From the NCBI GenBank assembly GCA_964016885.1, contig OZ024743.1:203360001-203424000 (forward strand): DNA of 64,000 nucleotides, read 5' to 3'. This document shows, piece by piece, positions 9,786-64,000 of the stretch (the stretch's first letter is position 1; every line of letters begins with the position of its first letter). A program made the translations under genes and the position numbers. The notes under the pieces were generated by a model. That model was not told the origin of the DNA. It saw only the letters and a program-made list of their open reading frames with translations, and searched no databases. This DNA comes from Eledone cirrhosa. Taxonomy: Eukaryota.

Positions 9786-10200
9786 TTTGGTTGAGAGGGG
9801 GAACTGACTAAGCGAATTTCGTTGAAATCTGCGGTAGCTAATGATCAACTTCCTTCGGACCTGCGCCTGCGCAGACCGGTGGGGATGAATTGGTACTGAC
9901 AGGGGAACGGATGAAGACCCCAAAAGCACACACTTCGTCCGTTCTCATGTCGATTCAATTTGGATTGCTTCGGAAACATAACCTTATTATGTAACAAGCT
10001 GTCTGACGATGTCGCGACACTGGCACACAGAACAGTGTGGCCACTGTCGCCATTGAAATATATATCACAGCATTATTATTAAAAGACTTGAACATCTGAA
10101 ACTACTTCGCTTTCCCTTATTCGATATTTACTCCGTCACTCCTATGTGGAATAAGTACGTTGAGTGCTTGAATTGAATTGCATCAATGTTTACCCTAAGT
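9786..10200 (+). mobile_element. Non-coding pLTR-like repeat with hammerhead (same family as 54958-55344)
   Basis: ~410 bp highly similar to 54958-55344, both ending ...ATGTTTACCCTAAG|TATATA; flanked by (TA)n. Confidence 0.85.
9998..10071 (+). ncRNA. Type I hammerhead ribozyme
   Basis: Stem I GCTGT/ACAGC; core CTGACGA; stem II GCGACA..CACAC/GTGTG..TGTCGC; GAAA; palindromic stem III A-TATATA-T; cleavage triplet AUC. Confidence 0.85.
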
Positions 10201-11414
10201 ATATATATATATATATATATATATGAAAGTGGGTGTTTTGAATACCACTGTGTCCAAAACTTTCAAACGTTAACTGAATGAGCATTTAATACGAGTATAA
10301 ATGTATATCGAGAGTCATACACACACACACACACATATATATATATATATATATATATATATATATATATATATATATATGTGTGTGTGTGTGTGTGTGT
10401 GTGTGTGTGAATGTGAGTGCGTGTATGTGTGTGTGTACGTGTGTGTGAATGTGAATGTGAGTGTGTGTGTGTGTGTGAGTGTGTGTGTGTAAGCACTTAA
10501 CAAAAGAAGACGAAGGACGCCACTTGCATCACGGATGATATTGCAATATTTGCAACAAATACAAAACTTGGACGTCGAAACAGACGTACACAGTTTCGAC
10601 AACTATCGAGGTTACTGCTGGGTCAACCGGGGCTTACAGAGTCAAACAAAATAATCAATCACTTTTCTTGGTGTATTAAGACGAAAACAAAATAAAACAA
10701 AACTTATGTTTATAGAATTAAATATTGTACACTATACATCGAATAGGGCCTTTGAGACCTGAACACGAAGTCACACACAGATGGTGGTAGACACCAAGAT
10801 GAAAGAACGCACCAATAGTAACGTGATAAGAAAGGAAATGTGTCACGTTAAAATCAGCAGCTGAAAAATGAGGAAGGGAACTGCATGTGTCACAAGTGAT
10901 ATTGGAATATTGGCATTAATTACAAAATCCATAATCATTGGTTGTTTGAAGTTGAATTTAAATTATTTCATGTTTATGAGCTTCAGGATTTGTTGATTAG
11001 GCATGAAATATTTGTTGGGTGAATTTGCTAGTGGTGGACGTTACTTTATTTCGTCAATCGTTGTCTTTTTGTGACTTAGTAATTGTATATCTTTGATGGA
11101 TGGAGGTTGGGCTGTGACAGTATTTATATTATCTTGTTGTTAGGTGAGGTTGTAAGAGAATGCATATATATATATTCAGGAAAGACCCTTGCTTTAGGTT
11201 ACTTGACTACGAATATACCTCTAAGGAAATATGCTTGTGAAGTATTCTTTTAGATTACTTTACTGTGATCCGCCCCTCAGTGATTCTGTATCAGATGTTA
11301 TGTGTGTATGCATCTCTTATTGAGATTAATTTAGCGATCTCTTTTCATTGGGATGTTATGTATATTTGTGACAAATTTATATATATATATATATATATAT
11401 ATATATATATATAT

Positions 11415-11830
11415 AAGAACAAAAGATGGTTAAAAGAGTTCCATGTATTTTATTATGCGCATTTCAAAAACAAATATCATCATGCAATAATATTTGTGTT
11501 TTCATCAGATAAAACATGAAGACATGATATGAAGGTTAAAAAACACTTGTGGATAGTTCAGTTTTAAATCAACATATCTTGATTTAAAACTGAACTATCC
11601 ACAAGTGTTTTTTAATCTTCATATCATGTCTTCATGTTTTATCTGATGAAAACACAAATATTATTGCATGATGATATTTGTTTTTGAAATGCGCATAATA
11701 AAATACATGGAACTCTTTTAACCATCTTTTGTTCTTATATATTATGTATACTCCAGTCCTACAAACTGTAGAGTGCTTATTATCCGATATCTGCATTGCT
11801 TTATTGTACTACAATAAAACTCACCTCCTA
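11415..11830. mobile_element. Fold-back element: ~158-bp near-perfect arms (11415-11572 / 11579-11736) plus ~90-bp tail
   Basis: Right arm is the reverse complement of the left arm around a 6-nt loop CATATC; flanked by (TA)n; the tail contains AATAAA. Confidence 0.9.
11633..11709 (+). ncRNA. Type I hammerhead ribozyme (mirror copy on minus strand in left arm)
   Basis: Stem I TTTTAT/ATAAAA (extends to CATG/CATG); CTGATGA at 11643; stem II AAACACAAATAT/ATATTTGTTTTT; GAAA; palindromic TGCGCA; cleavage triplet AUA. Confidence 0.85.
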
Positions 11831-59676: not shown

Positions 59677-62600
59677 ATATATATATATATATATATATAT
59701 ATATATATATATACATAATATATATACATAAATACACATATATATATGAATATATATACATACACATATATAAATATATACTTACGTATATACACATACA
59801 TATATATATACATACATATAGATACATACATATATATATATACATATATATATTCTCACATATATATATACATACATATATACATACATACACATAGATA
59901 CATACCTATTTATACATATATATATATACATGCATATGTACGCATACATATCCATATATACATATACATACATATATATACATGCATATACATGATATAC
60001 ATACATACATACATATATATACATGCATACATACATATATTATATATAAATGCATATATATATATACATATATATAAATACATATATATACATCGTTGGT
60101 GGCTGCCAACTCGTTTTCGAGTACGGACACCACTTTATATCCATGTAGGAGAACCCTTACCGATGCGCTGAACGAGTGATACATACATATACATATACAT
60201 ATACATACATACAAAAAAACTAATACATATATATATATATATATGTATATATATATATATATATATATATATATATATATATATATATATATATATATAT
60301 ATATATATATATATATATATATATATATATATATATATATATATATATATATATATATATATATATATATATATATGTATGTATATATAATAGTTATTAG
60401 GGAAAATATATCATACTGTGAAAAGAGGTTTCATAAATCAAAGAATATAATACAGTATTTTAGAGTTATGTCACTTGAAGCTTCTGTCTAAGACAGCCTC
60501 CTACAATGTATTTATTTTCAGTACCATTATAGGTACGAATATTTGATCTATTTCGCGGTTCTGTTAAAGAAATCCACTCAACTTATATTGAATATGGCAA
60601 GATACCGGCATCAACTGAGAGATTCCACATACATAGTGACTTTGATAGTCTCTATCTTAAAAGAAATCAAGGAATAAGACGAGAGGCTTATGATCAGTAC
60701 AGAAATTTTAGAAGAGTGGTGGTGATAGCGGCAGCAGCAGCAGCAGCATCATCACCACCACCACTACTACCACAACTAGTTCATGCAAAAGCGATGTTAT
60801 AGCAAAGGCTATAAAATGAAAGGTTAAATGCCCCAGATTATTTAGTTTCTTTTTTTATATGTTCAGTGTTCAAATCCCACCACAAGTGATTTCAATTTTA
60901 TCTTTTGTGTTCGATTATTTTCTCCTACCAAAAGGAATAGTTTGTATGGCTCCGGGAATTTGAACAGAATTGTTATTTGTATACGTATTTACAGTATTTT
61001 ATTGCATCATTTTTCTGTATTGTGAATGCACTTGGCCTAGCAGTTCATAAGGTTGCTAGGACGATTCCTGGTCGGTGTGATACATTGTGTTCTTGAACAA
61101 AATACTTCAGTTCGCGTTGCTCCTTCTGCCAGGAGTTAGGTCCGGCAGATAAGATCAGAGATGGGAAAAACGAATGAAATCATCGTCTCCATTGTGTCAT
61201 GTAATGAATAGCCTATTTCGTTGTCGTTTTGATTTTATATTATTTTTATTTTTATTTTTTTGTCGTAGCGTTATTTGTGGGGGCAATTTATTCAAGTTTC
61301 GAACACCTATATATGGTCGAACGCATTTAAATATTTATTATTTACAAGTATTTTTTTTTAGTTAAGCACTCTAAATGAAAACGGAGTTGCGGGAACATTA
61401 AAGGACAAAAGTATATGGACAGGGGGCTAGAGAGAATAAAGTTCCTCTCTTGATTCTCACGAATGACAGCCTACTCTATCTGGTTCAAAGCTCAAAAGAG
61501 AAACACATAAACCATAAATGCACAACCACTAACGGTGCTATCATCATATGAGAGTGGTACATACACACAAACACACACGCGCACACACATATATATATAT
61601 ATATGTTCACACACACACATATATATATATATATATATATATATATATATATATATATATATATATATATATATATATATATAAATGTATATATATATAT
61701 ATACATATATATTTATTTATATATATATATATATACATATATATTTATTTATATAATTATATATATTATATTTAATTATATATATATATATATATATGTA
61801 TATATATATATATACACACACATATATATATATATATATATATATATATATATACATATATATATATATATATATATATATATATATATATATATATATA
61901 GAGAGAGAGAGAGAGAGAGAGAGAGAGAGAGAGAGATTTTAGTGTATGTTTACACATAAACACACATATATATATATATGTGAGGTGGGTATCTGTATAT
62001 CAGAATGTATACAAGAAAATTTCCTTTTGCCTTTCTAGACTTAAAAGAAATTCCGACATTTTAAAATGCACCTAAAAATAAAATATATTAATAATCGGAA
62101 ATGAAAGAAAAACATGTCACAATCATATTAATAGTACAAATAAAAAAACAAAAATATATGCTTAAACTAACTAAAAACCTATTTTTATTCGAAACACGAT
62201 GTGAATAAAGTTTAATAAAATATATGAACAAACAACTCGGTAAAATATGTTTGTCTGCTTGTAAATATTTATATATATATATATATATATATATATATAT
62301 ATATATATATATATATATATATATATGCATACATATATATGTATATATATATATATATATATATATATATATATATATATATGTATATATATATATATAT
62401 ATACGTACATGAATGTGTATATATATATATATGTATATTTATTTATTTATTTATGTATATATATATATACATATTTAATATATATATATACATAGAGAGA
62501 GAGGGGAAAGAGAGAAAGAGAGAAGCGCATGTGTTTGTGAGAGAGAGAGAATTAGGGGAGATACAAAGCAAAGATGAAAATACAAATGAAAAGAAATCAA

Positions 62601-63402
62601 TGCTTCAAAGAAAATAGAATACAGGATTAAAAACGTATTTAAGAATTTTAGTCGCAGCATTTTATAAATTCATTCGTAGATTTTGTGAAATGCTTTAAAA
62701 AGAGGATAGAAACTGCCAAAAGATATTTAAGTAAATATGAGAAATGGACACACAATATTGCGATAAGTCAGCCAGAAATACAAGAACACACATAACCATC
62801 AACACATTAGGCATAAACCCGCATTAGATGTACATACAGACATATGCACATATACAAGGATTTCTTTCTATAACTTTACAATTGAATACATGAATTCTAT
62901 ACTTTCGTTATCTTTATATAAGTTTTTGCACACATTTACATGCCTTGGAGTTAAACGGGTTACTTTTTGTTTAGTATTTGTCTATGTTTATCCCAACCCT
63001 TTGTATATTTGTTTATATATATATATATATATACATACATACATACATACATACATACATACATACATACATACATACATACATATATATATATATATAT
63101 ATATATATATATATATATATATATATATATATATATATATATATATATATATATATTATATATATATATATATATATATATATATATATATATATATATA
63201 TATATATACATACATATTTATATATATATAGATATTTATATATATAGATATTTATATATATACATATTTATATATATATATATATACATATATATATATA
63301 TATATACATATATATATATATATATATATATATATATATAACATATATATATATATATATATATATATATACATATATATATATATATGTATATATATAT
63401 AT

Positions 63403-64000
63403 GTTGTTATACTTTGGGAGGGTCATGTTGCCAATAAGAAACACACGCAACAGTTGCTTTCACTTCAATTTATTATATATTTATAAATTTATAAATTTAC
63501 AAACCTACAAACTTATAAATTTCTGGTTGGTTGGTTGGTTCCACAACCAGATGGTTGTTTATATATAGTCATAGTCCTTTCGTCACACACTCTGTGACCT
63601 CTTCAGTGACTGGGGATTCCTTTCTTTGTTTCTGTGCCTTTCCTTTCTTCTATCCTACGCCATTTTGTTTCTGTGTGTGTGTTGTGTGTTCAGTTTGCGC
63701 ATGCGCCACATCCGGGTGTCTGTGTGTGTTTGTGTTCATTTATCTATTTGTTTATTTATTTATTTATTTATTGTTGGTTGGTTGTTTGTTCTATGTGTGT
63801 GTGTTTTCATTTTGTCCTGTGTGTGTTTTCATTTTGTCCTTAATTGTAAGTTGTTTGTTCTATGTGTGTGTGTGTTTTCATTTTGTCCTGTGTGTGTTTT
63901 CATTTTGTCCTTAATTGTAAGTTGTGATGTTGCTGTTCCACTCATATTTTCTATTTAATTTTGGTTGTAATTCTTTTATGCTTACGGCCTCTGTAATTTG
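63403..64000 (-). mobile_element. Probable PLE pLTR / 3' end running off the window
   Basis: Starts at (TA)n, has a hammerhead with AATAAA downstream of it on the minus strand, and nested tandem repeats at ~63782-63922. Confidence 0.55.
63567..63611 (-). ncRNA. Type I minimal hammerhead ribozyme
   Basis: Minus strand: AGTCA-CTGAAGA-gGTCACAgagtgTGTGAC-GAAA-GGAC-TA-TGACT. Confidence 0.82.

What the first reader, a model, noticed from the sequence alone, without database searches (positions are those of the whole stretch)
9786..63611. Recurrent fold-back elements carrying hammerheads in opposite polarity and inserted in (TA)n
Seen: sequence-unrelated palindromes at 11.4, 33.6/58.8, 38, 41.5, 42-50.8 and 50.9 kb (arms ~0.1-4 kb, loops 2-470 nt) all lie in (TA)n. 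Each has a foldable type-I hammerhead in the arm, so each strand reads one ribozyme pointing outward. Most have no coding sequence. Known: PLE pseudo-LTRs carry minimal hammerheads and PLE insertions can have an inverted upstream pLTR, whereas retrozymes use direct repeats. Inference: these are either an extreme, common product of PLE integration or a self-propagating class of non-autonomous ribozyme hairpins mobilised in trans by PLE RT/GIY-YIG. About nine hammerhead families in 64 kb looks unusually dense.
Basis: partly seen in the sequence, partly recalled or inferred. Interest (0 to 1): 0.9.

Follow-up and report, generated by a model that had tools for sequence, protein, structure and literature searches.

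The report
Head-to-head Penelope retroelement insertions
The hairpins are real but are mirror-image landings of ordinary ribozyme-bearing Penelope-type jumping genes (and one protein-free passenger element), built anew at each site rather than copied as hairpins, and their very regular shape suggests the enzyme likely copies one RNA twice, once from each cut DNA end.

Summary
Observation largely confirmed; the 'self-propagating hairpin class' is not supported. Five of six palindrome families are 3' ends of coding Penelope-like elements (PLEs; Hydra-type or Neptune-type by motif) whose long copies I fetched; the 38-kb one is a 539-nt tandem retrozyme. All show the published PLE layout: inverted 5'-truncated copy, one-sided tail, (TA)n target. 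Junctions mostly differ per locus. The 41.6-kb junction recurs exactly 326 times, but in three subfamilies and both tail polarities, at a position 30 nt behind a TATA box, so it is a recurrent run-off point, not one mobile hairpin. Not found in the papers read: exactly one tail in 113 of 115 two-armed insertions; the longer arm carries the tail in 22 of 44 cases, against simple snap-back; sister arms share subfamily alleles; the retrozyme lands with the same signature. Two claimed arms are defective, and the 33.6/58.8-kb family has a non-canonical core (15,577 exact copies against 60 canonical). Hammerhead density is high genome-wide (39 per 400 kb). Cleavage and expression untested. The scan noted the same pattern before in other genomes.

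The parts
11416..11831 (+). Family B: inverted tail-less arm 11416-11577, sense arm 11579-11735, 96-nt tail 11736-11831; hammerhead cores at -11508 and +11643; 3' end of a Hydra-type PLE
   Evidence: long copy L031
17577..33903 (.). Family D copy 1: tail starts at 17577, is interrupted by nested LINEs (about 17600-33500), resumes 33505-33597; inverted arm 33598-33697; about 100-nt filler similar to RT-coding sequence; sense arm 33802-33903; cores (CAGAAGA) at -33661 and +33838
37911..39091 (.). Family E: 539-nt tandem-repeat retrozyme unit (38558-39091) with an inverted copy plus about 120-nt tail on the left; intact core at +38955, left copy with broken stem I
41410..41763 (.). Family F: tail 41410-41474, inverted arm 41475-41621, sense arm 41622-41763; U3-A8 cores at -41579 and +41660; 3' end of a Neptune-type PLE; junction recurs 326 times
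   Evidence: long copies L189, L198
42022..50811 (.). Family G: tail 42022-about 42156, inverted arm to about 46268, sense arm about 46262-50811 including the endonuclease end of the ORF (46232-47002); cores with 116-126 nt stem II at -42373 and +50607; Hydra-type PLE
   Evidence: long copies L229, L230
50855..51219 (.). Family H: tail 50855-50896, inverted arm 50897-51048 (core deleted), sense arm 51049-51219 with core at +51071; 3' end of a Neptune-type PLE
58745..59675 (.). Family D copy 2: tail 58745-58833, inverted arm to about 59285, sense arm to 59675; cores at -58899 and +59613
52721..52912 (+). Family I: 112-nt hairpin plus 80-nt one-sided tail in (TA)n, same architecture, no hammerhead detected
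55442..58693 (+). Degraded coding PLE (RT and GIY-YIG Pfam hits) with an inverted copy of its 3' end at 55442-56454
9786..10199 (+). Family A: one-armed hammerhead-bearing 3' end (core +10003); second, degraded copy 54959-55364 with a 42-nt inverted arm at 54261-54302; parent ORF not sought
14470..15074 (.). Family C: hammerhead at -14576; other loci show tandem units of about 450 nt (retrozyme-like); boundaries approximate
63405..63760 (-). Family K: hammerhead-bearing 3' end (core -63606); two-armed at other loci; right boundary not mapped

Best explanation
Each hairpin is one Penelope-like retroelement insertion made of two 5'-truncated copies of the element's hammerhead-bearing 3' end joined head to head in a (TA)n tract, and it likely forms when the element's enzyme primes reverse transcription from both cut DNA ends on one RNA. 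Shown: the parent coding elements, the two fixed 3' ends (with and without tail), the variable junctions, exactly one tail per insertion, and the pile-up of short arms at one position behind a TATA box. Inferred: the endonuclease cuts both strands of (TA)n; one end primes at the tail-plus start site and the other at the tail-minus site; the two cDNAs stop independently, or both run off the RNA's 5' end, and are joined through 0-8 nt of overlap or a short filler. The smallest hairpins would be copies of the first 150-250 nt of the transcript, lack the upstream promoter and are predicted to be dead ends. The 539-nt retrozyme likely borrows the same machinery in trans. Confidence about 0.9 for 'PLE integration products', about 0.5 for 'one RNA copied twice'.
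For: Parent ORFs next to the same 3' ends: L031 (B), L208/L216 (D), L189/L198 (F; Pfam RVT_1 and GIY-YIG), L229/L230 (G), L155/L156 (H). Exactly one tail: F 28 of 28, D 15 of 17, G 11 of 11, E 14 of 14 (read by eye), H 16 of 16, B 12 of 12, K 7 of 7, I 10 of 10; 113 of 115. Longer arm is tail-plus in 22 and tail-minus in 22 of 44 simple unequal junctions. Arm lengths uncorrelated in D (rho 0.31, n 13) and G (rho -0.28, n 11). Sister arms share subfamily alleles: 17 of 17 fully callable loci among 31 with the identical junction; permutation p 0.001 (D), 0.002 (F), below 0.0005 (G). 5' ends pile up in a 6-nt bin: F 24 of 55, H 26 of 42, B 19 of 34 arms truncated within 400 nt; TATAAAA lies 30 nt (F) and 33 nt (H) upstream, with CCAAT boxes. 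The same edge appears in another data set: loose ends before L198:4569-4570 in raw reads and a depth rise there, and a drop from about 550,000 to 17,000 summed contig depth across the H edge. Literature: inverted 5'-truncated copy, one-sided tail and (TA)n bias (PMC8557442, passages and section 11); a PLE protein cuts and extends both strands, uses two RT start sites that define the tail, and is modelled as a dimer (PMC11167929, parts 1-2 of 4).
Against: No RNA run was available, so the start site rests on motifs and end mapping. B has no canonical TATA at -30 and its peak is partly selected by my query ending there; D shows no pile-up (5 of 57). An untemplated C, expected if a cap is copied, is common only in B (10 of 23 ends) and I (4 of 9), rare in F (2 of 18) and absent in H (0 of 15). 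Two D loci break the one-tail rule (L212 both, L209 none), and 5 of 31 loci had no tail called. Sister arms are not identical: 10 of 26 minor-allele cells in D and 49 of 77 in F were on one arm only (in F mostly a shifting T-run/A-run boundary, plus one real mismatch at L104). Shared subfamily could also mean two RNAs from one donor. [quoted passage not shown] B, D and G ORFs have no Pfam hit; their assignment rests on BLASTP to F's RT (E 6e-09), to each other and on motifs read by eye. Target-site duplications cannot be read inside (TA)n.
Confidence: 0.8

Rival explanations
1. A self-propagating class of non-autonomous ribozyme hairpins: a hairpin, once formed, is transcribed and reinserted as a unit by PLE enzymes.
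For: One junction recurs exactly 326 times genome-wide; several other F junctions recur two or three times among 28 pairs; short hairpins are very abundant.
Against: Of 31 loci with that junction, the tail is on the left in 17, on the right in 9, uncalled in 5, and the arms belong to three haplotypes (10, 4 and 3 loci), always matched within a locus. Inner strings differ at every two-armed locus in H (16), B (12), K (7) and I (10) (whole strings compared, so point mutations also count as differences), and arm end-points differ at every D and G locus. Short hairpins lack the upstream TATA/CCAAT region.
Confidence: 0.04
2. The second arm is a snap-back copy: the cDNA (or an antisense RNA, as proposed in PMC3846280) folds on itself and self-primes.
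For: Sister arms share alleles; many junctions are near-perfect palindromes with short overlaps; self-priming on an antisense template is the published proposal (PMC3846280, parts 1-4 of 5).
Against: A copy cannot gain a tail that its template arm lacks, yet the tail-less arm is the longer one in 22 of 44 cases, 17 of 32 when the difference is at least 20 nt. Unpaired extensions reach about 5 kb (L218, L224). The pile-up sits at a sense-strand promoter-like position.
Confidence: 0.15
3. Both DNA ends prime, but on two different RNA molecules from the same donor locus, held by an enzyme dimer or by hammerhead stem-III pairing.
For: Independent arm lengths in D and G; imperfect arm identity; palindromic stem III in most of the motifs, proposed to allow dimeric folds (PMC4209133, results section).
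Against: Gives no simple reason for exactly one tail in 113 of 115 insertions; the 52.7-kb family lacks a detected hammerhead yet follows the rule (10 of 10).
Confidence: 0.25
4. Assembly fold-back artefacts, or TA-targeting DNA-transposon miniature elements with terminal inverted repeats.
For: Palindromes are a known artefact of long reads and TA flanks are typical of Tc1/mariner miniatures (own knowledge).
Against: Arms differ by a tail and by substitutions, lengths run from under 50 nt to 5.7 kb, arms continue into RT ORFs, and opposite-strand joints at the same edge occur in independent short reads and contigs.
Confidence: 0.01

Closest known systems
Endonuclease-positive PLE insertions with an inverted 5'-truncated copy and a one-sided tail (PMC8557442 Fig. 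2 legend and text; PMC3846280)
   Same: Head-to-head arrangement, tail at one end, partial tandems, pLTR with TATA-like and initiator-like motifs, palindromic junctions.
   Different: Tails here are 40-135 nt rather than 30-40; copy numbers are in the thousands per family; one-tail exclusivity, arm-length symmetry and junction pile-up are quantified here and were not in the passages read.
Hydra-clade PLEs (PMC8557442, section 11)
   Same: Families B, D, G show RW(R/I), DKT, CxCX5C linker, flanking CxxC and CxH motifs, hammerheads and (TA)n targets (motifs read by eye).
   Different: G is about 6.5 kb, longer than the under-3-kb elements described; D has a non-canonical core; no tree was built.
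Neptune-type PLEs (CX2-5CxxC linker, DKG motif; PMC8557442)
   Same: F has DKG, a CX4CxxC linker and Pfam RVT_1 plus GIY-YIG; H has the same linker and RT thumb region.
   Different: Clade not tested by phylogeny; Nematis shares the linker.
Opposite-strand minimal hammerhead pairs 100-700 bp apart and the U3-A8 core in Schistosoma PLEs (PMC4209133, results section)
   Different: Here most motifs keep a small palindromic stem III, and some have very long stem II (up to 126 nt).
Metazoan non-LTR retrozymes (PMC7229834 passages; bioRxiv 10.64898/2026.07.22.740005 abstract, introduction and passages)
   Same: Family E: non-coding tandem unit, one type-I hammerhead per unit, monomers and partial multimers.
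   Different: Unit is 539 nt; 14 of 26 loci carry an inverted arm with a one-sided tail. The word 'inverted' occurs 0 times in PMC7229834 and once (a reference title) in the preprint; supplements not seen.
Poseidon from Anolis in vitro (PMC11167929, parts 1-2 of 4)
   Same: Both strands cut and extended, two RT start sites bracketing the tail, AT-rich target, hammerhead dispensable for insertion.
   Different: Coordination of the two start sites within one insertion was not reported there.

Membership tests
EN+ Penelope-like element | Single ORF with RT followed by a C-terminal GIY-YIG endonuclease in the parent element | tested here: met
   F: Pfam RVT_1 and GIY-YIG. B, D, G: no Pfam hit but RT similarity to F, to each other and motifs by eye; most copies carry frameshifts. 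H: RT thumb, linker and endonuclease end seen.
EN+ Penelope-like element | pLTR from partial tandems and/or an inverted 5'-truncated copy | tested here: met
   Tandems L216, L229, L230; inverted copies
EN+ Penelope-like element | Tail at one end only | tested here: met
   113 of 115 two-armed loci
EN+ Penelope-like element | Hammerhead in the pLTR | tested here: met
   not met for the 52.7-kb family
EN+ Penelope-like element | Target-site duplication | not testable with these tools
   All ends lie in (TA)n
Hydra clade | RWK-type, DKT, CxCX5C motifs and (TA)n target | tested here: met
   B, D, G sequences against PMC8557442 section 11
Hydra clade | Phylogenetic placement with Hydra RTs | not tested
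   No reference set was aligned
Non-LTR retrozyme (family E) | Non-coding tandem repeat with one type-I hammerhead per unit | tested here: met
   Tandem 539-nt units at many loci; longest ATG ORF 43 aa
Non-LTR retrozyme (family E) | Expression as self-cleaved linear and circular RNA | not testable with these tools
   No RNA run listed
Self-propagating hairpin class | Identical junction inherited with fixed polarity and one lineage | tested here: not met
   Both polarities and three haplotypes among 31 identical-junction loci
Active hammerhead ribozyme | Canonical core C3-U4-G5-A6-N7-G8-A9 / G12-A13-A14 / A15.1-U16.1-H17 | tested here: inconclusive
   Met by pattern in B, E (right arm), G, H (right arm), A, C, K; U3-A8 in F; A at position 4 in D (15,577 exact against 60 canonical)
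Active hammerhead ribozyme | Self-cleavage | not testable with these tools
   Needs an in vitro assay

The most novel reading that the evidence does not exclude
PLE integration is an obligate paired reaction: a dimeric enzyme cuts both strands of (TA)n and copies one RNA twice, one subunit from each of two fixed start sites, so every two-armed insertion has exactly one tail, short hairpins map the element's transcription start, and metazoan retrozymes integrate by this PLE route. The genome would hold roughly 300,000 hammerhead motifs as a by-product.
Probability: 0.45. Interest if true: 0.65.

Novelty: new member of a known kind. Interest (0 to 1): 0.36.

Why it matters
The structure itself is in print, so the finding is not a new class. 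Its value is as a very large natural data set for an open question that PMC8557442 names: how PLEs form tandem and inverted structures. The one-tail rule, the even split of longer arms and the shared alleles give predictions that the existing in vitro system (PMC11167929) could test directly. The retrozyme at 38 kb supplies structural rather than phylogenetic evidence for mobilisation by PLE enzymes. A 15,000-copy family with a non-canonical core and a family with no detected hammerhead suggest cleavage may be dispensable for spread.

Tried and rejected
Rfam scan: no hammerhead family among the rows shown, microsatellite noise only. Strict pattern missed most motifs. DNA searches for families D and F returned nothing because their words are too common; exact patterns were used instead. 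No RNA holder listed, so expression, cleavage ends and start sites were not tested; run X11 laid no reads. Organism A differs from this genome at several fixed sites, so it is support from a relative or another population, and the RAD-seq reads come from few start positions. Cap-derived C: mixed. Automatic tally of inverted ends among position-ordered hits was unreliable for long arms and is not used as a frequency. Rows left out: of 15 G regions fetched, 5 (L223, L228-L231: cut at 10 kb or tandem arrays); of 18 D regions, 3 (L215-L217); for the longer-arm count, 8 F ties or complex junctions and 4 D complex or rule-breaking loci. Pairs were chosen because both arms matched an exact or best-scoring query, which favours young copies. 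Literature searches for a paired-priming model and for this kind of host ('octopus' was my recalled guess from the repeat landscape, from no call) found no such description; the library lacks many subscription papers and no supplements were read.

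
Full report
Observation. Self-comparison finds all seven palindromes at the stated places, each bounded by (TA)n. A relaxed type-I hammerhead scan gives 15 motifs in 9 families and none in 12 shuffles. Both arms score in the 11.4, 33.6, 41.5, 42-50.8 and 58.8 kb elements; the left arm at 50.9 kb has lost its core and the left arm at 38 kb has a broken stem I. The 33.6/58.8 family reads CAGAAGA at the core; this form has 15,577 exact genomic matches against 60 for the canonical letter. 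The 41.5 family uses the U3-A8 core (6,175 exact matches), a variant already reported in PLEs (PMC4209133, results section). Forty evenly spaced 10-kb samples hold 39 motifs, none in shuffles (hits not checked one by one, one looks doubtful). That is 6.2 per 64 kb, so the window is about 2.4-fold enriched in a 3.0-Gb genome that would hold roughly 300,000 motifs; PMC7229834 (passages) gives 120,000 for axolotl.

What the elements are. Copies elsewhere in the genome extend each arm into a coding element. B continues into an RT and endonuclease ORF (L031), D into a 3.3-kb unit (L208, L216), F into a 770-aa frame with Pfam RVT_1 and GIY-YIG (L189), G into a 6.5-kb tandem unit (L229, L230), H into an RT thumb, cysteine linker and endonuclease. 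B, D and G have no Pfam hit, but G aligns with F's RT (E 6e-09) and with D (39% identity), and they show the motifs given for the Hydra clade, whose members insert into (TA)n (PMC8557442 section 11). F and H have the Neptune-type linker; no tree was built. E is different: a non-coding 539-nt unit in partial tandems with one hammerhead per unit, a non-LTR retrozyme by structure.

Anatomy. Each family has two fixed 3' ends. Two-armed insertions join an antisense arm directly to a sense arm with 0-8 nt of overlap or a short filler; the apparent loop is the overhang of the longer arm. Exactly one end carries the tail in 113 of 115 two-armed loci over eight families (F 28 of 28, D 15 of 17, G 11 of 11, E 14 of 14 by eye, H 16 of 16, B 12 of 12, K 7 of 7, I 10 of 10). 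This is the layout drawn for PLEs in PMC8557442 (passages) and described in PMC3846280 (parts 1-4 of 5); opposite-strand hammerhead pairs 100-700 bp apart were noted and attributed to truncated PLEs in PMC4209133.

The mobility test. D and G arms end at different places at every locus, and inner strings differ at all H, B, K and I loci. F is the exception: the window's junction recurs 326 times. Among 31 such loci the tail is left in 17, right in 9 and uncalled in 5, and the 17 fully callable loci fall into three haplotypes, always matched between sister arms. One propagating hairpin would keep one polarity and one lineage. The recurrence has a simpler cause: F arms pile up 42-43 nt upstream of the core and H arms 42-44 nt upstream (24 of 55 and 26 of 42 in a 6-nt bin), 30 and 33 nt behind a TATA box with CCAAT boxes further up. 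Reads and contigs of a related data set show the same edge. I infer this is the transcript's 5' end; no RNA run was listed to test it. B piles up at -69 without a canonical TATA and partly by query selection, and D shows no pile-up.

Mechanism. If the second arm were a snap-back copy, the longer arm should carry the tail. It does in 22 of 44 simple cases and does not in 22; arm lengths are uncorrelated in D and G and correlated in F (rho 0.79), where the pile-up dominates. Both arms therefore look separately primed, in line with a PLE protein that cuts and extends both strands, starts at two sites bracketing the tail and is modelled as a dimer (PMC11167929, parts 1-2 of 4). Sister arms share alleles more than chance but not perfectly (10 of 26 cells in D and 49 of 77 in F on one arm only; the F cases mostly a shifting T/A run). 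The most economical model is one RNA copied twice, once from each start site; two RNAs from one donor remains possible. That paper found hammerhead mutants still insert; here the 52.7-kb family follows the same rule with no hammerhead detected. The retrozyme shows the same signature at 14 of 26 loci, which the retrozyme texts searched do not mention (main text only).

Comparison and verdict. It works like, and by tested features is, endonuclease-positive PLE integration; family E is a retrozyme carried by it. My searches found the architecture in print but no paired-priming description. Earlier notes of this scan reached the same reading in other genomes, after I had recorded mine; they are unchecked and not counted as support. 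New members of a known kind, with a useful mechanistic data set: interest 0.36.

Noticed in passing
window 17600-33520: Two 98.7% identical 6.1-kb LINE copies (endonuclease, RT, zinc finger) and two degraded RT elements between them are nested in the (TAA)n of family D's tail, splitting that insertion by 16 kb. 'Tx1-like' would be my recalled label.
   Followed up: partly
window 33698-33801: The filler between the arms is 87.5% identical to RT-coding sequence at 17391-17482, about 100 nt from the original left end of the same insertion, and only 80% over 41 nt to family D's own ORF; it may have been copied from flanking DNA.
   Followed up: partly
L250:1887, L250:4759, window 33838: Position-4 core variants (A or C) occur in several unrelated families with good stems; none is listed in the section on core variants of PMC3088659 that I read (figure not seen).
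   Followed up: partly
L247:636-2431: A further tandem retrozyme-like family with a 592-nt period, U3-A8 core and an inverted arm.
   Followed up: no
L198 and L156, upstream of the TATA box: Unrelated families F and H share a GAGCCACTTTT motif just upstream of their TATA boxes.
   Followed up: no
family F, about 40 nt downstream of the hammerhead: A T-run/A-run keeps its total length near 12 while the boundary shifts, even between sister arms.
   Followed up: no
window 5616-9786: Another degraded PLE (weak RVT_1) with a tandem 244-nt pLTR at 9303-9786 and a hammerhead-like core at 9401 whose stem I does not close.
   Followed up: no
window 2889, 4043, 12796, 36605, 51701, 53016: Six copies of a repeat of about 185 nt, SINE-like by appearance.
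   Followed up: no
window 34077-34180: A 104-nt hairpin beside a TA run with no match in the loci held.
   Followed up: partly
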